A DNA stretch of 10,544 bases from a virus. Lineage: Duplodnaviria > Heunggongvirae > Uroviricota > Caudoviricetes. How positions within the stretch are numbered: the stretch's first letter is position 1; each line of letters starts with the position of its first letter. This document shows positions 1,236-9,235 of the stretch, in pieces. The stretch is taken from IMG/VR virus record IMGVR_UViG_2579778804_000012, positions 1-10,544 of that record; one strand, 5' to 3'. Made by a program: the position numbers and the translations under genes. Below the pieces are notes generated by a model. The model did no database searches and had not been told where the DNA came from. It saw only the letters and a list, made by a program, of their open reading frames with translations.

Positions 1236-1251
1236 CAGTATGCGCATACTG
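1236..1251. promoter_or_regulatory. perfect 16-bp palindrome CAGTATGCGCATACTG just after the int stop; candidate protein-binding site or hairpin
   Basis: Self-complementary 16-mer read directly; preceded by a T-run (1221-1235). Confidence 0.4.
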
Positions 1252-1260
1252 GATAAGTGC

Positions 1261-1310
1261 ACAGATACAACGTGAAACAATGTGCAACAACGTGACACAA
1301 TCACGAACAA
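1261..1310. repeat. five tandem 10-bp phased units (acagatACAA cgtgaaACAA tgtgcaACAA cgtgacACAA tcacgaACAA); candidate DNA-binding array
   Basis: Exact 10-bp periodicity with invariant ACAA ends and GTGA/GTGC cores, read directly. Confidence 0.6.
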
Positions 1311-1401: not shown

Positions 1402-1438
1402 AAAAAAGGCATAAAACAAGATTTTATGCCTTTGTATT
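1402..1438. terminator. hairpin terminator candidate between int and alpA (stem GGCATAAAA/TTTTATGCC, A-run before, T-rich after)
   Basis: 9-bp perfect inverted repeat 1408-1416/1422-1430, loop caaga, followed by tttgtatt. Confidence 0.5.
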
Positions 1439-1592: not shown

Positions 1593-1781
1593 GTGTTAAG
1601 CACTGATCGGTTTATACGTGAAAAAGAATGCGAAAAGCTAACAGGCCTTAGCCGCTCATGCCGCTACCGCCTGGAAAAGGCCGGACAATTCCCATCACGT
1701 CGTAAACTTGGTGGGCGTTCTGTTGGCTGGTCTTTATCTGAGGTTTTGGCCTGGAAGGATAGCTGCAAGGCAGTTCACTAA
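1593..1781 (+). CDS. alpA: AlpA-family transcriptional regulator / possible excisionase (GTG start)
   Basis: 62-aa ORF; LTGLSRSCRYRLEKAGQFPSRRKLGGRSVGWSLSEVLAWK matches the AlpA signature (TG.SR...Y......FP..RKLG.RSVGW...E...W). RBS AAGGGGG at 1581-1587. Confidence 0.8.
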   Translation: MLSTDRFIREKECEKLTGLSRSCRYRLEKAGQFPSRRKLGGRSVGWSLSEVLAWKDSCKAVH

Positions 1782-1920
1782 AAAGACTGGCGGCACACAG
1801 TCGCCACACATCCACTAATACAGAGATATAACTATGAAGATTGAATATGCGCCCGAACGTGGGCGGGGATTCGTTCGCCCTGGTGAAACTGAAAAACAAC
1901 AAAATTGGGGTTTTTCAGGC

Positions 1921-1950
1921 ATAAAAAAAGCGGCCCCGATATGGAGCCGC
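1921..1950 (-). terminator. candidate intrinsic terminator for the minus-strand small-gene operon (stem GCGGC/GCCGC, U-run on minus strand)
   Basis: Stem 1930-1934/1946-1950 with 11-nt loop; on the minus strand it is followed by the complement of the A-run at 1922-1929. About 75 nt below the stop of the 2025..2228 gene. Confidence 0.4.
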
Positions 1951-2024
1951 CTTTCTGAACAATTAACCTGCTGCGCCTTATGTGTATGTGATCCCAAACA
2001 TAAGCACGGGAATGATAGCCGCTA

Positions 2025-2228
2025 TCAGGCTGGTGGGCAATTACCTTGCTTGTTGGGGCCGTATTGTGCTGCCATTTTCATCCGTTCAGAACGTGAATAT
2101 TTTTTTAGAAACTCATCAAGGACAAAAGCGCATGGAGCGAATCTTTCTGATTCATGCTCGAGCGCCATATTTTCGTGCTCTCTGTTCGTTTTTTGCGATG
2201 GTGTATTGGTTGATTCTTTGTTGGTCAT
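2025..2228 (-). CDS. small acidic protein of unknown function (67 aa), paralog of the 2686..2913 gene
   Basis: Starts MTN.., shares FVLDEFLKKY with FALEDFVDKY in the paralog; identical 43-bp upstream element; RBS AGGT 8 nt upstream. Confidence 0.5.
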   Translation of the reverse strand: MTNKESTNTPSQKTNREHENMALEHESERFAPCAFVLDEFLKKYSRSERMKMAAQYGPNKQGNCPPA

Positions 2229-2237
2229 TGTGTGTAC

Positions 2238-2280
2238 CTGTAAAGCAATGCGCCGGAGTTCCTCACGCCACGGCGCTGAT
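2238..2280. repeat. 43-bp element, copy a (100% identical to 2923-2965), intergenic upstream of the MTN-type gene
   Basis: ctgtaaagcaatgcgccggagttcctcacgccacggcgctgat read identically at both sites; contains inverted repeat GCGCCG..CGGCGC. Confidence 0.9.
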
Positions 2281-2285
2281 GTTTT

Positions 2286-2465
2286 TTATTCTTTGGGTTC
2301 AATACCGCGTTGCTGTAATTCTTTTCGGATTATTCGTTTTATCCAAGCTGCTAAAGAGTCATCACCGTCTTGTTGTTGTGCTTTTTCCATCTTTTCCCGT
2401 AAGTCAGGATCTAAACGGAACTGGAAAGGAGGATTACCACGCCTTTCATTTTTGTGTGTTGACAC
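2286..2465 (-). CDS. Arc/MetJ-type ribbon-helix-helix DNA-binding protein candidate (59 aa from GTG; 34 aa if ATG at 2390)
   Basis: Minus-strand translation ..RRGNPPFQFRLDPDLREKMEKAQQQDGDDSLAAWIKRIIRKELQQRGIEPKE fits the Arc-like strand-helix-helix pattern; RBS GGGGTG 8 nt upstream of the GTG. Absent from the supplied ORF track (non-ATG start, under 60 aa). Confidence 0.45.
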   Translation of the reverse strand: MSTHKNERRGNPPFQFRLDPDLREKMEKAQQQDGDDSLAAWIKRIIRKELQQRGIEPKE

Positions 2466-2486
2466 GTCAATTACACCCCATATAAT
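2459..2486 (+). promoter_or_regulatory. consensus sigma70-type promoter: TTGACA (2459-2464), 16-bp spacer, TATAAT (2481-2486)
   Basis: Both hexamers are perfect consensus with near-optimal spacing; it overlaps the start region of the minus-strand Arc-like gene. Confidence 0.55.
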
Positions 2487-2492
2487 GTGTTT

Positions 2493-2508
2493 ATGTGTAT
2501 ATACACAT
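2493..2508. promoter_or_regulatory. perfect 16-bp palindrome ATGTGTATATACACAT immediately downstream of the -10; candidate operator
   Basis: Self-complementary 16-mer read directly, at about +1 to +20 of the promoter above. Confidence 0.5.
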
Positions 2509-2530
2509 TACACACAACTAGCACAAAAAA

Positions 2531-2599
2531 CAACGCCCCGCAGTGATGGGAACACATACGGGGCGTCTAACCAAACCATTAATTGAGGTAACGATTATG
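2531..2599. ncRNA. structured element copy 1: 7-bp GC stem CGCCCCG/CGGGGCG with 18-nt loop, conserved tail TCTAACCAAACC, RBS and ATG GCT; leader RNA on plus strand and/or terminator on minus strand
   Basis: Stem 2534-2540/2559-2565. On the minus strand it is followed by TTGTTTTTTGTG (terminator-like). On the plus strand it precedes GAGG, then ATG at 2597. Homologous to 3398-3466. Confidence 0.4.
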
Positions 2600-2685
2600 G
2601 CTATAAAAGAGCATAGCTTACTCTTTATACACACACAAACGCCCCGGAAACGGAATAATCCGTTTCATAGTTCGGTTTTGTGCAC

Positions 2686-2913
2686 TCATCCTGGCGGTCG
2701 GTTTTTGCCGGATTTAAGCCGCCGTGGGTATTTATCGACAAAATCTTCAAGGGCAAATTTTTCTGGTGGCACTAAGCGCGGCGCTGGTGGTGGTATTTTT
2801 GTTCTGGTTAGTTCTTCCTCAAGTCTGGCGCAGGCTTCTGACTGCCTTTGCCGGATGATTTCATCATCTTGCGTTTGCGTGTCTTGTATTGGTGATAGTG
2901 TGTTGTTGGTCAT
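2686..2913 (-). CDS. small acidic/proline-rich protein of unknown function (75 aa), paralog of the 2025..2228 gene
   Basis: Starts MTNN.., contains FALEDFVDKY; preceded by the 43-bp element copy b. Confidence 0.55.
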   Translation of the reverse strand: MTNNTLSPIQDTQTQDDEIIRQRQSEACARLEEELTRTKIPPPAPRLVPPEKFALEDFVDKYPRRLKSGKNRPPG

Positions 2914-2922
2914 GTTACTGCC

Positions 2923-2965
2923 CTGTAAAGCAATGCGCCGGAGTTCCTCACGCCACGGCGCTGAT
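2923..2965. repeat. 43-bp element, copy b (100% identical to 2238-2280)
   Basis: Identical 43-mer between the RHH gene stop (2971) and the downstream gene start (2913). Confidence 0.9.
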
Positions 2966-2970
2966 AGTGA

Positions 2971-3277
2971 TTATTCTGATTCTTTGGCCTTGCGGCGCTG
3001 GAGTTCTTCGCGTGCGATGGCGATAAGTTGCCCGAGTTCTTCCGTAGCTTTAATACCAATTTTTTCCACTTGCGCCAATGCATCGAGAGAAGAAATCAGA
3101 GGATTTTCACTGCTTCCTTCTGCCTGGCGGCGGGCGATCTCCCCGCGCATGGCGGTTACTATGAATCCGGCGTTGCTTTCGCCGTCCAGTTTTACGGATT
3201 CCATGCCATCAAAAGCATCATGTGGGATACGAATTGAAATCTGTTTTGATTTGTCGTTGATAGTGTTTTTTGCCATG
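2971..3277 (-). CDS. ribbon-helix-helix (Arc/CopG-like) DNA-binding protein candidate, 101 aa from the MAKNT start
   Basis: KQISIRIPHDAFDGMESVKLDGESNAGFIVTAMRGEIARRQ fits the RHH pattern. Start moved from the track ATG at 3315 to the ATG at 3277, which sits 6 nt after RBS AGGAGA. C-terminus resembles the Arc-like paralog (IAREELQRRKAKESE vs IRKELQQRGIEPKE). Confidence 0.6.
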
Positions 3278-3298
3278 TGCATTCTCCTAAACAAAAGA

Positions 3299-3376
3299 TG
3301 TGATTCAGTATACACAAAAAAGAATCACAAAAAACACTTGACCTGTGATTCAGTTGAATTTAATTTAAATCACACC
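3299..3376. promoter_or_regulatory. operator-like cluster: TGTGATTCAGT direct repeats (3299-3309, 3344-3354) plus inverted half-sites GAATCACA (3322-3329) and AATCACAC (3368-3375); weak candidate promoter TTGACC at 3338-3343
   Basis: Repeated motif in both orientations in the divergent region between the RHH gene and the Icd-like gene. Confidence 0.4.
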
Positions 3377-3397
3377 TCAGTAAGAGGATGTAAACGA

Positions 3398-3463
3398 CAA
3401 CGCCCCGAACTGTTTGCGGCAGTAGCGGGGCGTCTAACCAAACCGTTAACAGGAGTAACGATT
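3398..3463 (+). ncRNA. structured leader copy 2: stem CGCCCCG/CGGGGCG (3401-3407/3426-3432), 18-nt loop, tail TCTAACCAAACC, RBS AGGAG, then ATG GCT; candidate c4/CI-like regulatory RNA or 5'-UTR element
   Basis: Same stem, tail and RBS/start block as copy 1 but a different loop; no U-run on the minus strand, so a plus-strand role is favoured here. Confidence 0.4.
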
Positions 3464-3664
3464 ATGGCTGGAACACAGCATACCCCACGTCTGGCGCACA
3501 CACAAACTGCCTTTGTGTGGCGTTTTCTGGCCCTGAGTGCCGGAGAATCTCAAATCATCCACGTAACCGCCTGGACGGAACGCGAAGCGCGTAACCGTTG
3601 CCCGTCCGGTTGTGTTGCTGTATTCGCTGCCCGTATTCGCCAGGGGGAAACCTATGCACAATAA
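3464..3664 (+). CDS. small protein (66 aa) in the position of Icd-like (host cell division inhibitor-like) proteins of P4-type elements; identity tentative
   Basis: MAGTQHTPRLAHTQTAFVWRFLALSAGESQ...; good RBS; follows the structured leader. The first 15 aa are homologous to the truncated start at 2597 (MAIKEHSLLFIHTQT). Confidence 0.5.
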   Translation: MAGTQHTPRLAHTQTAFVWRFLALSAGESQIIHVTAWTEREARNRCPSGCVAVFAARIRQGETYAQ

Positions 3665-3884
3665 AACCACACCGGACGCAGCAGAAGAAGCAATGCAAAT
3701 ACTGATACGTGCGCTCGTTGATGTTACCCACATGGTGGAGAGCATGGAGAGAAAATCACAGTCGGAGCACGACAAAAGAAAACTTAAAACAATAAAAATA
3801 ATTGCCAAAAACTCGCTGATAAAAGTTACAGACATCCTTAATGAGGACATTAAAAGAATAAGGGAGAAAATTTGTGATGCATAA
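3654..3884 (+). CDS. hypothetical small protein (76 aa), AT-rich gene
   Basis: ATG at 3654 with RBS AGGGGG 6 nt upstream; overlaps the Icd-like stop; lysine-rich, low GC. Confidence 0.5.
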   Translation: MHNKTTPDAAEEAMQILIRALVDVTHMVESMERKSQSEHDKRKLKTIKIIAKNSLIKVTDILNEDIKRIREKICDA

Positions 3885-7154: not shown

Positions 7155-7349
7155 ATGCCAGAGAACAACACCAGAAAGCCGGATAAAAGTGCCACGGTAC
7201 ACATAGACGCCGGAACTATGGAGAAGATCGAACGCTATCAGCAGTTCATCAAAGATAATCACCCGGGTATGCCAGTGCCCACGAAAGGACAAATCACACG
7301 CAGCGCGGTTGAATACTGGTACAGGGCAACGTTAGGAGCCTGGCTATGA
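7155..7349 (+). CDS. small protein (64 aa), possible RHH-type regulator, translationally coupled to the capsid gene
   Basis: ATG 7155 is 7 nt after RBS GGAGG (the track ORF starts earlier at 7122); its stop overlaps the ATG at 7346. Confidence 0.5.
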   Translation: MPENNTRKPDKSATVHIDAGTMEKIERYQQFIKDNHPGMPVPTKGQITRSAVEYWYRATLGAWL

Positions 7350-9235
7350 AAACATGGTTTTCCATTAAGGCTATGGCAGATGTTGTACATGTGCGCATTT
7401 ATGACGAGATCGGCGGGTACGGTGTAAAGGCATCGGCACTTACTGACGAGATCAACGCGTGCGGTAATGTGTCTGAAATCCATCTGAGCATTCATTCACC
7501 TGGTGGCGACATCTTTGAAGGGCTGGCTATCTATAACGCTCTGAAAAATCATCCGGCAAAAAAAATCGTACACATTGAAGGCATGGCGGCTTCTATGGCG
7601 TCGTTTATTGCCATGTGTGGAGATCACATCGTTATGCCTGAAAACGCGATGATGATGATACATGCCCCCCGTGGTGTTACTGCCGGAGTGTCGGGCGACG
7701 TTCGCCGCTTTGCTGATCTGATGGACAAGCTGGGCGACACGATGGCAGAAACCTATGCCGGAAGAACGGGCAGGAGCAAACAGGAGATCACCTCCATGAT
7801 GGAGGCGGAAACCTGGATGGATGGCAATGAGTGTAAGGCTAACGGCTTCGCAGATGAGGTTATACCCGCGATTACAGCAATGGCCCGAATTGAATCAAAA
7901 CGAATCGGAGATTTTTCAAATATGCCGGAAAAAATTAAAAGCATGATCAGCCAGAAAACTGGCAGTGGCGAACAGGAACGACTTAACGGAATCCGTGAAT
8001 TGTTTGGCACCTTCAACGGAAGATATAACGACCTGGCTATAAGTTGTCTTGCGGATTCAGAATGTAGCGTTGAGAATGCACGCGAACGCCTTTTACTCGC
8101 TATGGGTAAAGAATCAACGCCAACAAACAAAACCACCCCCGCAAATCTTTACTACGCGTACACGGATAACGGCAATATAACCGGCGATGCCATGCGTCAG
8201 GGGCTTAATGCGCGTCTTGGTCACGAACGGGCCGAACGCGGTAATCCTTACGCCATGATGAGCCTTTTCGATATGGCACAGGCATCATTAACCCATCGTG
8301 GTATAAGCACGGGCAGCTACAGCACACGCTCGCAGATAGTAAACGCGGCATTCACCCACAGCAGCAGCGATTTTACCGATATCCTTGCTGGTGGCGCTGA
8401 AAAATCAGTGCTTGCAGGCTGGGAGCACAGCGGCGAAACATTCCGCCAGTGGACGAAAAAAGGTTCCCTTTCAAACTTCCGGGAAGCCCGCCGCGTTGGT
8501 ATGAATGGCTTCTCAACGTTAAACAAAGTGCCGGAAGGGGCAGAATATAAATACATCACCACCAGCGATCGCGGTGAACCCATCGCGCTGGCTACTTACG
8601 GGAATATTTTCAGCATTACCCGCCAGGCGATAATCAATGATGACCTTGATCAGTTATCAACGGTGCCAATGGCTATGGGCCGTGCAGCATCAAGAACGGT
8701 GGGAAATCTGGTTAATCTGGTGCTTACAGGCAACGTAAAACTTTCTGACGGAATAGCGCTGTTTGACAAAAAACACAGCAACCTGATTGAAGCAGGACTG
8801 ACAACACCGGGACTTAGTGCAGCACGTCACCTGATGCGCACACAGAAGGACAAAAATGGCGAAGTGCTGAATATTGCGCCTAAATTCCTTTTAGTTCCGG
8901 CAGCACTGGAAGATCGCGCGTTGCAGATGATTAACTCAACCGCACCTTTCGGGGCTGATAAAAACAGCGGGATCTTTAACCCGTATCACAAGCTACTTGA
9001 TATCATCGTCGATCCCCGCCTTGATGATATCAGCGAAAAACAATGGTACATGCTTTCCGCACAGGGAACGGACACAATCGAGGTGGCTTATCTTGATGGC
9101 AATGACGAACCTTACCTTGAACAGCAGGAAGGCTTTATCGTTGACGGCGTGGCCTGGAAAGTCCGTATTGATGCAGGTGTGGCAGCTCTGGATTATCGCG
9201 GTATGGTCAAATCAGGCGGTACCGATTCACTATGA
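7346..9235 (+). CDS. prohead protease (ClpP/S14-like) fused to a probable major capsid protein, with a scaffold-like linker
   Basis: 629 aa; N-terminal 170 aa IHSPGGDIFEGLAIYNALKNH...HIEGMAASMASFIAMCGDHIVMPENAMMMIHAP matches the phage ClpP-like head-maturation protease pattern; the C-terminal ~400 aa is inferred to be capsid from size and context, not from a recognised motif. Confidence 0.75.
   Translation: MKTWFSIKAMADVVHVRIYDEIGGYGVKASALTDEINACGNVSEIHLSIHSPGGDIFEGLAIYNALKNHPAKKIVHIEGMAASMASFIAMCGDHIVMPENAMMMIHAPRGVTAGVSGDVRRFADLMDKLGDTMAETYAGRTGRSKQEITSMMEAETWMDGNECKANGFADEVIPAITAMARIESKRIGDFSNMPEKIKSMISQKTGSGEQERLNGIRELFGTFNGRYNDLAISCLADSECSVENARERLLLAMGKESTPTNKTTPANLYYAYTDNGNITGDAMRQGLNARLGHERAERGNPYAMMSLFDMAQASLTHRGISTGSYSTRSQIVNAAFTHSSSDFTDILAGGAEKSVLAGWEHSGETFRQWTKKGSLSNFREARRVGMNGFSTLNKVPEGAEYKYITTSDRGEPIALATYGNIFSITRQAIINDDLDQLSTVPMAMGRAASRTVGNLVNLVLTGNVKLSDGIALFDKKHSNLIEAGLTTPGLSAARHLMRTQKDKNGEVLNIAPKFLLVPAALEDRALQMINSTAPFGADKNSGIFNPYHKLLDIIVDPRLDDISEKQWYMLSAQGTDTIEVAYLDGNDEPYLEQQEGFIVDGVAWKVRIDAGVAALDYRGMVKSGGTDSL

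What the first reader, a model, noticed from the sequence alone, without database searches (positions are those of the whole stretch)
2459..2508. Consensus promoter with a perfect palindromic operator, overlapping a divergent gene start
TTGACA-16-TATAAT is a full consensus match, unlikely by chance, followed directly by ATGTGTATATACACAT. It fires rightward into the leader and the antisense of the minus-strand genes, while the Arc-like gene's GTG start and RBS overlap the -35 and spacer. This looks like a face-to-face switch region analogous to phage immunity switches.
Basis: seen in the sequence. Interest (0 to 1): 0.55.

Follow-up and report, generated by a model that had tools for sequence, protein, structure and literature searches.

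The report
Repressor-controlled promoter of a phage satellite
The perfect promoter and its palindrome are real and are the rightward promoter and operator of an Arc-like repressor cassette in an E. coli phage-inducible chromosomal island, an element type whose repressor had not been identified; comparison with relatives also predicts a small antisense RNA and a translated frame running backwards through the repressor genes.

Summary
TTGACA-16-TATAAT (2459-2486) is the only exact consensus promoter in the window (0.01 expected). The 16-bp palindrome lies 6 bp after it. The GTG start of a 59-aa gene on the other strand overlaps the -35.

The window is an EcCICFT073-type Gram-negative PICI inserted in tqsA of E. 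coli 89-3156.

The promoter belongs to a swappable cassette: small gene, RHH repressor, operators and promoter, then a conserved leader and an icd-like gene. The repressor is Arc-like. Two GTGT-N4-ACAC sites are the only ones in 10.5 kb; one covers the -35 and one covers +1. Across relatives the operator sequence tracks the repressor's beta-strand (11/11 and 6/6).

- The leader hairpin is an intrinsic terminator on the minus strand, for a predicted ~80-nt antisense RNA that covers the icd ribosome site. It has 105 G·U pairs on the minus strand and none on the plus strand.
- This cassette is the upstream one of two stacked cassettes, and its icd is cut after 15 codons.
- A stop-free plus-strand frame runs antisense through the repressor genes in nearly all relatives.

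The promoter-operator is a known kind of element. The whole switch is undescribed. No transcription or binding was measured.

The parts
2459..2464 (+). -35 hexamer TTGACA of the rightward promoter P_R(A)
   Evidence: TTGACA is kept in all relatives of this cassette type.
2481..2486 (+). -10 hexamer TATAAT of P_R(A), 16-nt spacer. The start is predicted at about 2493-2494 and has not been mapped.
   Evidence: Relatives mostly have TGTAAT at this place.
2454..2465 (.). Operator O1, GTGTGTTGACAC (GTGT-N4-ACAC). It overlaps the -35 and the repressor gene's start codon.
   Evidence: one of only two such sites in the window, even with one mismatch allowed. Conserved in relatives.
2493..2508 (.). Operator O2, the perfect palindrome ATGTGTATATACACAT (core GTGTATATACAC, 2495-2506). 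It covers the predicted +1 of P_R(A). Its centre is 41 bp from the centre of O1.
   Evidence: The half-sites ATGTGT/ACACAT are kept in relatives while the central 4 nt vary. 10 of 11 cassettes with this repressor type have two sites.
2286..2465 (-). RHH-A: a 59-aa Arc-like ribbon-helix-helix repressor with beta-strand PPFQFRL
   Evidence: - PHROG 228 'Arc-like repressor', E 1.5e-6.
- AlphaFold2 model with two helices at pLDDT above 90.
- Foldseek hits are almost all RHH proteins: NikR, Arc, CopG, ParD.
- 117 homologues across Enterobacterales.
- The operator sequence covaries with the beta-strand.
2025..2228 (-). 67-aa gene downstream of RHH-A in the leftward operon. Function unknown. It is a paralogue of the 75-aa gene of cassette B.
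   Evidence: PHROG 21027, unknown function.
1923..1957 (-). Intrinsic terminator of the leftward operon of cassette A: a 14-bp stem followed by U7 on the minus strand
   Evidence: -21.7 kcal/mol, z -3.6; sequence.
2505..2533 (-). Candidate leftward promoter P_L(A): -35 TTGTTT (2533-2528), 17 nt, -10 TAATGT (2510-2505). It is weak and is inferred only.
   Evidence: Read from the sequence. A TTG lies 17 nt upstream of a conserved TAATGT in four variants of this cassette. There is no scan or experimental support.
2493..2596 (+). Leader of the P_R(A) transcript: A-rich run, hairpin 2533-2566, invariant TCTAACCA, SD GAGG
   Evidence: a conserved cassette boundary in more than 50 loci; fold.
2523..2602 (-). 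Predicted ~80-nt antisense RNA of cassette A. The 5' stem-loop has the anti-SD CCUC in its loop. The terminator hairpin (2568-2532) is followed by a U-run.
   Evidence: - Fold: -32.1 kcal/mol, z -5.7.
- Strand asymmetry of pairing and the U-run.
- Covariation.
2610..2638 (-). Predicted promoter of antisense RNA A: -35 TTGTGT (2638-2633), 17 nt, -10 TATGCT (2615-2610), inside the icd' codons
   Evidence: the -10 is TATGMT in 54 of 55 sequences, with TAnnnT invariant. Alignment.
2597..2641 (+). icd': the first 15 codons of an icd-like gene (MAIKEHSLLFIHTQT), cut off at the junction with cassette B
   Evidence: The same junction is present in 9 loci.
2686..3276 (-). Leftward operon of cassette B: YlcI/YnfO-type RHH (2971-3276) and a 75-aa gene (2686-2913)
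   Evidence: NCBIfam NF041551, E 4e-18; RefSeq annotation.
3338..3366 (+). P_R(B): TTGACC-17-TAATTT, with TGTGATTCAG / AATCACA repeats around it
3390..3469 (-). Predicted antisense RNA of cassette B (promoter TTGTGT 3505-3500 / TATGCT 3482-3477)
3464..3664 (+). Intact icd-like gene (66 aa), the first gene of the rightward replication operon
   Evidence: NCBIfam NF033153, E 5e-18; RefSeq annotation.
1834..2586 (+). Stop-free plus-strand ORF (250 aa). It starts 53 nt after alpA, runs antisense through cassette A and through P_R(A), and ends 11 nt before the icd' ATG.
   Evidence: Its N-terminus Y.PE.GRGFVRP is kept in O157 and CFT073.
2597..3664 (+). Stop-free plus-strand ORF (355 aa): icd', then antisense of cassette B, then in frame into Icd-like
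1593..1781 (+). alpA (AlpA-family regulator), co-oriented with int (1-1218)
   Evidence: Pfam PF05930, E 5e-18.

Best explanation
**What it is.** The site is P_R, the rightward sigma-70 promoter of a self-contained repressor cassette in an EcCICFT073-type phage-inducible chromosomal island.

**Repression (inferred).** The divergently encoded 59-aa Arc-like RHH protein binds two GTGT-N4-ACAC operators four helical turns apart. One lies over the -35 and over the protein's own start codon. The other is the palindrome at +1. Binding shuts off P_R, and probably also the protein's own weak facing promoter.

**The transcript (shown from sequence).** P_R transcribes a conserved leader that normally precedes an icd-like gene and the island's replication operon.

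**Second lock (predicted).** The leader's ribosome site and start codon are covered by a constitutive ~80-nt cis-antisense RNA. This RNA starts inside the first codons of icd and ends at the leader hairpin, which is a terminator only on the minus strand.

**Layout in this window (shown).** This cassette is the upstream one of two stacked cassettes. Its icd is reduced to 15 codons. A P_R(A) transcript must therefore run about 870 nt antisense through the second cassette's repressor genes before it reaches the intact icd and the replication genes.

**Likely consequences (inferred).** That transcript should interfere with synthesis of the second repressor. A stop-free, translationally coupled plus-strand frame probably keeps it from Rho termination.

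Shown here: the sequence features, their conservation, the operator-repressor covariation, the RNA covariation and the synteny. Inferred: binding, transcription starts, the existence of the antisense RNA, and readthrough.
For: **Promoter**
- Unique exact consensus in the window.
- A promoter at the same offset from the leader in more than 50 distinct cassettes.

**Operators**
- Only two GTGT-N4-ACAC sites in 10.5 kb, 41 bp apart.
- The half-sites are conserved while the centre varies.

**Repressor**
- PHROG 'Arc-like repressor', E 1.5e-6.
- Model and fold matches to Arc, CopG and NikR.
- In the protein alignment the helices are invariant and the beta-strand varies.
- The beta-strand type predicts the operator type: PPFQFRL with GTGT-N4-ACAC in 11/11, PPYQMRL with ATGGTAATTACC in 6/6. 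A third type, KQIALRV, goes with GGTTGACA repeats.

**Context**
- The window is identical to E. coli 89-3156, where the island splits tqsA.
- The same gene order, int-alpA-(small gene, RHH on the other strand)-icd-DUF4222-primase-SSB-capsid, is found in EcCICFT073 itself.

**Antisense RNA**
- Pairs are 99.4% canonical on the minus strand and 84.7% on the plus strand. There are 105 G·U cells on the minus strand and 0 on the plus strand.
- There are 4-7 U in the 10 nt after the stem on the minus strand, against 1 on the plus strand.
- The -10 TATGMT is present in 54/55 sequences (all).
- Five pairs have compensatory changes, and 0 of 500 shuffles reach the observed scores.
- The fold is -32.1 kcal/mol, z -5.7, with the anti-SD in a loop.

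**Stacking**
- Repeats D1 and D2.
- The same icd' junction occurs in 9 loci with different cassettes on either side.
- No plus-strand terminator-like site lies between 2486 and 3464.
Against: - No transcription start, RNA or protein-DNA binding has been measured.
- The perfect -10 is not conserved. Most relatives have TGTAAT, which lacks the key A at position 2, so promoter strength varies.
- The leftward promoter of the repressor gene is only a weak match.
- For the antisense promoter, the -35 is clear in most icd N-terminal types but not in all (type MRNHT...). The conserved bases also lie in codons, and in intact icd genes they form part of a plus-strand hairpin (3499-3519).
- Readthrough across 870 nt of antisense sequence is untested.
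- The sequences used are related and partly mosaic: only 7 single-linkage clusters. Counts of loci therefore overstate the number of independent events.
Confidence: 0.72

Rival explanations
1. The cassette is a type II toxin-antitoxin pair: an RHH antitoxin, a small toxin downstream, and a palindromic operator for autoregulation. On this reading the rightward consensus promoter is incidental.
For: - The layout is RHH first, then a small second gene, with a palindrome at the promoter.
- Several Foldseek hits are RHH antitoxins: ParD, CopA_SO, MazE9, AtaR.
Against: - The 67-aa and 75-aa partners match no toxin family in Pfam, NCBIfam or PHROGs.
- A conserved 57-nt spacer separates the two genes, rather than the overlap typical of TA pairs.
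- In every cassette type the operators bracket the rightward promoter, which points at icd and the replication genes.
- Some cassettes have the RHH alone (L004, L005).
Confidence: 0.07
2. Cassette A is a decaying duplicate. Its icd is truncated, so the promoter, however perfect, is a relic with no present role.
For: - icd' is cut after 15 codons.
- The intact icd has its own promoter, P_R(B).
Against: - Both cassette A genes are intact.
- The truncation point falls exactly after the predicted antisense-RNA promoter, so the whole regulatory unit is retained.
- The same junction persists in 9 loci with different cassettes on either side.
- 52 E. coli records carry cassette A at 99% identity or more.
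- The RHH-A family is 80-98% conserved across many genera.
- The plus-strand frame stays open across both cassettes.
Confidence: 0.12
3. The plus-strand ORF is the real gene here: a long-N-terminus Icd-like protein, as PGAP calls it in O157 and other genomes. On this reading the promoter-like and palindromic sequences are just coding sequence.
For: - The stop-free plus frame is present in 59 of 70 regions.
- PGAP annotates it as Icd-like in L006 and L093.
Against: - The translated product is Cys/Ser-rich and is unrelated between cassette types.
- The minus-strand proteins have family matches and a confident fold.
- The repeats and promoter hexamers keep fixed positions while everything between them changes.
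- The two readings are not exclusive. An open frame can be kept for translation without its product mattering.
Confidence: 0.06

Closest known systems
Phage P22 immI region (Mnt and Arc RHH repressors, Pant/Pmnt, sar antisense RNA)
   Same: - Small RHH repressors bind symmetric operators that overlap a strong promoter and a facing or divergent weaker one.
- A short cis-antisense RNA, made from a promoter inside the operon, is complementary to the ribosome site of the first effector gene.
- The description of P22 rests on my own knowledge; the features on the island's side come.
   Different: - There is no ant gene and no second repressor (arc) downstream of the promoter.
- The effector is icd-like, followed by replication genes.
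- The host element is a satellite with AlpA.
- The operators are a pair 41 bp apart.
- Cassettes are swapped and stacked.
- There is no sequence similarity to sar, and no Rfam family matches.
Phage P1/P7 immI operon (c4 RNA - icd - ant)
   Same: An icd-like gene is the first gene behind a regulated promoter, and an RNA regulator targets its ribosome site. The icd-like match is NF033153, E 5e-18. The P1 organisation is from my own knowledge.
   Different: - In P1 the c4 RNA is encoded on the sense strand upstream and is processed from the same transcript. Here the RNA is a true cis-antisense transcript.
- The Rfam C4 model does not match, even at E below 1.
- There is no ant gene.
Face-to-face pR/pL lysogeny switches of coliphages 186 and P2
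   Same: Two promoters fire towards each other over a short distance, with the repressor gene on the weaker arm, so transcription from one arm interferes with the other (my own knowledge). Here the repressor's start codon lies under the -35 of P_R.
   Different: - The repressor here is an RHH protein rather than an HTH CI protein.
- The predicted starts overlap by only a few nt.
- The leftward promoter is not established.
EcCICFT073 and other Gram-negative PICIs (AlpA-activated satellites)
   Same: - The gene order is the same and the AlpA, Icd-like, DUF4222 and SSB proteins are homologous.
- CFT073 carries its own version of the cassette, TTGACG with 2 x GTGGGCCACACC.
- AlpA was shown to activate island genes and its own promoter (PMC6092414).
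   Different: [quoted passage not shown]
- The RHH cassette, the antisense RNA and the open antisense frame are not described in the papers I could search.
- This island has a ClpP-protease/capsid fusion and two cassettes.
SaPI Stl / Gram-positive PICI Rpr master repressors
   Same: A divergent repressor and promoter pair holds a satellite's replication operon silent until a helper phage acts (PMC6092414).
   Different: - Stl/Rpr are not small Arc-like RHH proteins (my own knowledge; not tested here).
- They are inactivated by helper proteins, and no inducer is known here.
- No antisense RNA layer is described for them.

Membership tests
Sigma-70 promoter | -35 and -10 hexamers near consensus with a 16-18 nt spacer | tested here: met
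   12/12 match with a 16-nt spacer; unique in the window.
Sigma-70 promoter | A transcript starts 6-9 nt after the -10 | not testable with these tools
   No transcriptome data were available. The predicted +1 is at about 2493-2494.
Ribbon-helix-helix (Arc/MetJ/CopG) repressors | Short N-terminal strand followed by two helices | tested here: met
   - The AlphaFold2 model has helices at residues 20-33 and 38-52 with pLDDT above 90. The strand is not called in a monomer model.
- Foldseek matches Arc 1par (TM 0.73 on the target, rmsd 0.7), NikR, CopG and ParD. These E-values are weak, 1 to 10.
- PHROG 228 'Arc-like repressor', E 1.5e-6.
Ribbon-helix-helix (Arc/MetJ/CopG) repressors | Sequence membership in a curated family | tested here: inconclusive
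   - No Pfam hit.
- NCBIfam YlcI_YnfO_N scores 20 bits, below the 30-bit cut-off.
- PDB profile search gives E of about 1.
Ribbon-helix-helix (Arc/MetJ/CopG) repressors | Binds repeated or symmetric operator half-sites through the beta-strand | tested here: inconclusive
   This is indirect evidence only: the operator type tracks the beta-strand type (11/11 and 6/6; a third type). There is no binding assay.
P22 immI-type region | ant gene, arc downstream of the promoter, mnt divergent | tested here: not met
   Only one divergent RHH gene is present. The genes downstream are icd-like and hypothetical.
P22 immI-type region | cis-antisense RNA over the effector's ribosome site | tested here: inconclusive
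   Predicted from the terminator's strand asymmetry, covariation and a conserved -10. The RNA has not been observed.
P1 immI (c4-icd-ant) | C4-family RNA (Rfam RF01695) upstream of icd | tested here: not met
   No Rfam hit at E of 1 or below in the window or in a related phage locus.
P1 immI (c4-icd-ant) | icd-like gene first in the operon | tested here: met
   NF033153 at 64.9 bits (cut-off 25) for 3464-3661. Only a 15-codon stump lies behind P_R(A).
Gram-negative PICI (EcCICFT073 type) | int and alpA co-oriented at one end, a primase/replication module, about 10 kb, inserted at a specific chromosomal site | tested here: met
   The island splits tqsA. It carries int, AlpA, RepA helicase, SSB and a capsid homologue. 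Synteny with EcCICFT073.
Gram-negative PICI (EcCICFT073 type) | Induction and transfer by a helper phage | not testable with these tools
   Shown for EcCICFT073 in PMC6092414, not for this island.
Type II toxin-antitoxin module | A recognisable toxin partner, with genes overlapping or tightly coupled | tested here: not met
   The partners match no toxin family. A conserved 57-nt spacer separates the genes.

The most novel reading that the evidence does not exclude
Gram-negative PICIs are held silent by an undescribed three-layer switch.

1. Swappable Arc-like repressor cassettes act on P_R.
2. A sar-like cis-antisense RNA acts on the icd ribosome site.
3. A translated 'corridor' runs through the repressor genes. 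This is a stop-free plus-strand frame, antisense to them and sharing their third-codon positions. It starts just after alpA and is coupled or fused to icd.

On induction, AlpA-driven transcription would be translated through the corridor, which would spare it from Rho termination. It would silence the repressor operon by collision and antisense pairing, and it would deliver ribosomes to icd and the replication genes.

Stacked cassettes such as the two here would add a second, independently keyed lock. The upstream leader might also titrate the antisense RNA.
Probability: 0.3. Interest if true: 0.8.

Novelty: new variant of a known kind. Interest (0 to 1): 0.6.

Why it matters
PICIs are abundant in E. 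coli: the cassette or its leader matches in 1025 of 5426 complete genomes. They move virulence and defence genes.

For the Gram-negative ones, the founding paper states that a repressor is 'unclear' and that only the activator AlpA is known (PMC6092414). This site gives a concrete, testable candidate for what keeps the replication and icd operon off. It names a protein, two operators and a predicted RNA, and all of these are also present in the experimental model EcCICFT073.

A preprint also points to a 'long N-terminal extension' Icd-like gene of a primase-carrying prophage element as the likely effector of phage-triggered growth arrest. That ties this region to anti-phage defence.

The cassette swapping provides a natural set of orthogonal repressor/operator pairs.

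Tried and rejected
- **Rfam** at E of 1 or below, on the window and on a related phage locus: no C4, sar or other family. The only hits were weak matches elsewhere, BSnc120 and ctRNA_p42d.
- **Scan of one genome per species** with the Icd alignment: only 3 loci. The IMG/VR scan gave the 80 loci that I used.
- **PDB sequence searches** with RHH-A, RHH-B and the RHH-A profile: nothing significant.
- **Folding the conserved D2 spacer** between the repressor and the small gene: no better than shuffles, z -0.6 to -1.2. It remains unexplained.
- **Synonymous-codon permutation** of the four minus-strand genes: the open plus frame inside the genes is not by itself improbable (P = 0.53, 0.67, 1.0 and 0.26). 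The signal lies in the 702 nt of intergenic sequence (P about 2e-6 from composition) and in the recurrence across loci.
- **Literature searches** for Icd-like with satellite, YlcI/YnfO, PICI with repressor, and EcCICFT073: no description of this cassette.
- **Rejected readings**: a toxin-antitoxin module, a decayed relic, and pure coding sequence (see the rival explanations).
Full report
**1. Observation**

The sequence read shows TTGACA at 2459-2464, a 16-nt spacer and TATAAT at 2481-2486. This is the only 12/12 site in the promoter scan of the whole window. An exact search gives one match against 0.01 expected, and 1 of 200 shuffles has any match.

The palindrome ATGTGTATATACACAT is perfect over 16 nt at 2493-2508, six bases after the -10. 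The window holds two perfect 16-mers, at 1236 and 2493. Shuffles average 0.22, and 59 of 300 have at least one.

The minus-strand ORF 2286..2465 starts with GTG at 2465. Its start codon therefore overlaps the -35, and its GGGGTG ribosome site lies in the spacer. Relatives encode the same M-S-T N-terminus from ATG on the same TTGACAT, which supports that start.

**2. Where the window comes from**

Positions 1900-3700 of the window are 100% identical to the E. coli 89-3156 chromosome. The RefSeq annotation shows a ~10.4-kb island that splits tqsA. It carries, in order:
- an integrase and an AlpA-type regulator;
- four small minus-strand genes;
- an Icd-like protein and a DUF4222 protein;
- a RepA helicase and an SSB;
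- a ClpP-protease/major-capsid fusion.

Family scans agree: AlpA scores E 5e-18. Icd-like NF033153 scores E 5e-18, and YlcI/YnfO scores E 4e-18 for the second repressor.

The prototype Gram-negative PICI, EcCICFT073, has the same order: int, alpA, a small gene and a YlcI/YnfO RHH on the other strand, then icd-like, DUF4222, primase, SSB, PerC and capsid. The window is therefore an EcCICFT073-type satellite.

**3. The cassette**

Two long repeats show that the region holds two copies of one unit. D2 is 2218-2292 versus 2903-2977 (85% identity). D1 is 2525-2640 versus 3392-3507 (72%). Each unit consists of:
- an RHH gene and a small gene on the minus strand, separated by D2;
- an intergenic promoter region;
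- a conserved leader, D1.

Behind leader B lies an intact icd-like gene (3464-3664). Behind leader A only the first 15 codons remain.

I collected 80 related loci from IMG/VR and a dozen from E. coli genomes. The leader is a fixed cassette boundary: an A-rich run, a hairpin, the invariant TCTAACCA, an SD and the ATG. Everything to its left is swapped. I read off at least 12 different repeat types, and each is present as two copies that bracket a promoter.

The best sigma-70 match lies 62-81 nt upstream of TCTAACCA in nearly all of 57 distinct regions, usually as TTGAC(A/G) or TTGAA(A/G). The promoter in this finding is thus one instance of a family-wide layout.

The perfect -10 is not conserved. 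TATAAT occurs in 4 of 11 distinct sequences of this cassette type, and TGTAAT occurs in most of the others.

**4. Operators and repressor**

GTGT-N4-ACAC occurs exactly twice in the window, at 2454-2465 (over the -35) and at 2495-2506 (inside the palindrome). Only 0.16 sites are expected, and no further site appears even when one mismatch is allowed. The two centres are 41 bp apart, about four helical turns. Relatives keep ATGTGT/ACACAT and vary the four central bases.

The evidence that the 59-aa protein is Arc-like:
- It matches PHROG 228 'Arc-like repressor' at E 1.5e-6.
- Its AlphaFold2 model has two helices with pLDDT above 90.
- Its structural neighbours are almost all RHH proteins: NikR, Arc, CopG, ParD, PutA and AtaR. 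The E-values are weak, as is usual for a 40-residue domain.
- It has 117 homologues across Enterobacterales, mostly 80-98% identical.

In the protein alignment the helices are nearly invariant. The N-terminal strand falls into discrete types: PPFQFRL, PPYQMRL and KQIALRV. In RHH proteins this strand reads the DNA; that point is established knowledge of Arc, MetJ and CopG.

The strand type predicts the repeat:
- All 11 distinct PPFQFRL cassettes carry GTGT-N4-ACAC, ten of them twice.
- All 6 PPYQMRL cassettes carry ATGGTAATTACC twice.
- A KQIALRV cassette carries GGTTGACA repeats.

This covariation is the main reason to call the palindrome an operator for this protein. Binding itself was not tested.

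**5. The facing promoter**

The repressor's start codon lies under the -35 of P_R, so its mRNA must begin to the right of about 2480 and run leftward. The only candidate I can name is TTGTTT (2533-2528), 17 nt, TAATGT (2510-2505). The TAATGT, and a TTG 17 nt upstream of it, recur in four variants of this cassette. This candidate is weak, and I give it low confidence.

The leftward operon (RHH-A, the D2 spacer, the 67-aa gene) ends at a strong minus-strand terminator at 1957-1923.

**6. The leader hairpin belongs to the other strand**

On the plus strand the hairpin at 2533-2566 is followed by CTAACCAAACC, with no U-run. On the minus strand it is followed by UGUUUUUUG.

I aligned 55 distinct leaders. 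In that alignment:
- The 13 pairs of the hairpin are canonical in 99.4% of cells on the minus strand and in 84.7% on the plus strand.
- There are 105 G·U cells on the minus strand and none on the plus strand.
- There are 4-7 U in the ten bases after the stem on the minus strand, against one on the plus strand (all).
- Five pairs show compensatory changes, and none of 500 column shuffles reaches the observed scores.

About 85 nt upstream on the minus strand, inside icd codons 5-7, lies TATGMT. It is present in 54 of 55 sequences, with TAnnnT invariant. In most icd N-terminal types TTGTGT lies 17 nt further up.

An RNA from about 2602 to about 2523 folds at -32.1 kcal/mol (z -5.7) into two stem-loops. 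The first presents the anti-SD CCUC in a 7-nt loop, and the second is the terminator.

I conclude that a cis-antisense RNA over the icd ribosome site is likely. The RNA has not been observed, no Rfam family matches it, and in one icd type the -35 is not evident.

**7. The stacked arrangement**

The icd' stump ends immediately after the predicted antisense promoter. Cassette A therefore keeps its whole regulatory unit and nothing more.

The same junction (MAIKEHSLLFIHTQTPRKRNN...) occurs in nine loci with different cassettes on either side. The stacking is thus old and is itself recombining. Fifty-two E. coli records carry cassette A at 99% identity or more.

No plus-strand terminator-like site lies between 2486 and 3464. 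A P_R(A) transcript could therefore run antisense through the cassette B genes and reach the intact icd.

Antisense RNA A shares 19-nt and 15-nt identical blocks with leader B, including the SD-ATG region. Cross-talk between the two cassettes is possible.

**8. An unexpected open frame**

On the plus strand a stop-free frame starts 53 nt after alpA (ATG 1834). It runs antisense through cassette A and through P_R itself, and it stops 11 nt before the icd' ATG. A second frame runs from that ATG through cassette B, in frame into Icd.

In 59 of 70 distinct related regions, at least 600 of the 750 nt upstream of icd are open on the plus strand. Only 0.6% of dinucleotide shuffles reach that. The minus strand, which holds the annotated genes, has a median of 318 nt. 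The frame usually ends in frame with icd or within 30 nt before its ATG.

All four minus-strand genes of the window lie in the phase where the third codon positions of the two strands coincide; I worked this out from the coordinates.

Inside the genes the openness is not improbable, given the amino acids. The 702 intergenic nt, and the recurrence across loci, carry the signal.

CFT073 has a single 428-aa ORF of this kind, and O157:H7 has a 314-aa one. PGAP calls them Icd-like in O157:H7 and in L006. The N-terminus Y.PE.GRGFVRP is kept between them, with synonymous differences.

The 2018 PICI paper fused a reporter to 'ORF3' of EcCICFT073 and found it AlpA-activated (PMC6092414). [quoted passage not shown]

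My reading is an inference: the frame is kept so that transcripts coming from the alpA side are translated, and so escape Rho termination, and are then coupled into icd.

**9. Comparison with known systems**

The closest analogue in mechanism is P22 immI, with its RHH repressors on a strong promoter and its sar antisense RNA. It lacks icd, AlpA and cassette stacking, and this region lacks ant and arc.

P1 immI shares icd behind an RNA-controlled ribosome site. Its c4 RNA, however, is sense-encoded, and the Rfam C4 model does not match here.

Within PICIs, the Gram-positive Stl/Rpr logic is similar but uses different proteins. For Gram-negative PICIs the literature I could search describes only AlpA, and it says the repressor is unclear. 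I found nothing on this cassette.

**10. Verdict**

As a promoter-operator pair for an Arc-like repressor it is a known kind of element. As part of the PICI switch (swappable and stackable cassettes, a predicted antisense RNA, a translated antisense frame) it is an undescribed variant. It gives a direct experimental handle on how Gram-negative PICIs stay silent.

Everything about activity is inferred: transcription starts, binding, the RNA and readthrough.

Noticed in passing
window 1834-2586 and 2597-3664 (+); L095 9767-11053; L093 2558-3502: A stop-free plus-strand frame runs antisense through the repressor cassettes, from just after alpA to icd.

- It is open over at least 600 of 750 nt in 59 of 70 distinct related regions, against 0.6% of shuffles.
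- It ends in frame with the icd ATG or within 30 nt before it.
- Its third codon positions coincide with those of the minus-strand genes.
- PGAP annotates it as 'Icd-like' in some genomes.
   Followed up: partly
window 2523-2602 (-) and about 3390-3469 (-): A predicted ~80-nt cis-antisense RNA lies over the icd ribosome site in both cassettes. It has a minus-strand-only terminator and a conserved TATGMT -10. It is absent from Rfam.
   Followed up: yes
window 2218-2292 and 2903-2977: This is the 75-nt repeat D2, between each repressor gene and its small partner gene. A 43-nt core is identical in the two otherwise diverged cassettes. Its fold is no better than shuffles on either strand, and its role is unknown.
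   Followed up: partly
window 3499-3519 (+): A terminator-like hairpin lies inside the intact icd coding region: CACACAAA..TTTGTGTG followed by GCGTTTTCTG. It is formed by the HTQT and FVW codons and is conserved in most icd types. Its 5' arm is the complement of the antisense promoter's -35. It may be an attenuator.
   Followed up: no
window 1236-1251: A second perfect 16-nt palindrome, CAGTATGCGCATACTG, lies between int and alpA. The half-site resembles the CAGTATAC motif next to the YlcI-type repressor genes (for example 3306-3313). It may be a regulator site in the alpA promoter region.
   Followed up: no
window 1263-1303 and 1513-1533: Three copies of a 21-nt direct repeat (..ACAACGTGA.ACAAT..) lie upstream of alpA. 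They are candidate binding sites for AlpA, which is autoregulated in EcCICFT073.
   Followed up: no
window 1405-1433: A perfect 12-bp inverted repeat, AAAGGCATAAAA / TTTTATGCCTTT, lies between int and alpA. It looks like a two-way terminator. It underlies the weak, sub-threshold Rfam BSnc120 match.
   Followed up: no
window 2645-2664: An 8-bp hairpin, GAAACGGA-ATAA-TCCGTTTC, lies just after the stop of the 75-aa gene at the junction between the two cassettes. It is a weak terminator candidate for the leftward operon of cassette B.
   Followed up: partly
window 7346-9235 (+): A single 629-aa ClpP-like prohead protease / major capsid fusion protein is encoded in a 10-kb island. No portal or terminase gene is annotated. 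EcCICFT073 instead has separate capsid and decoration genes.
   Followed up: no
L096 2420-2840 (Klebsiella phage P12620-1, PQ569648.1): The same cassette is present in a 106-kb record deposited as a phage genome: TTGACA, inverted GTGCGTACCTAT/ATAGGTACACAC repeats, the leader hairpin and an icd-like gene. It is annotated there as one long plus-strand hypothetical CDS.
   Followed up: partly
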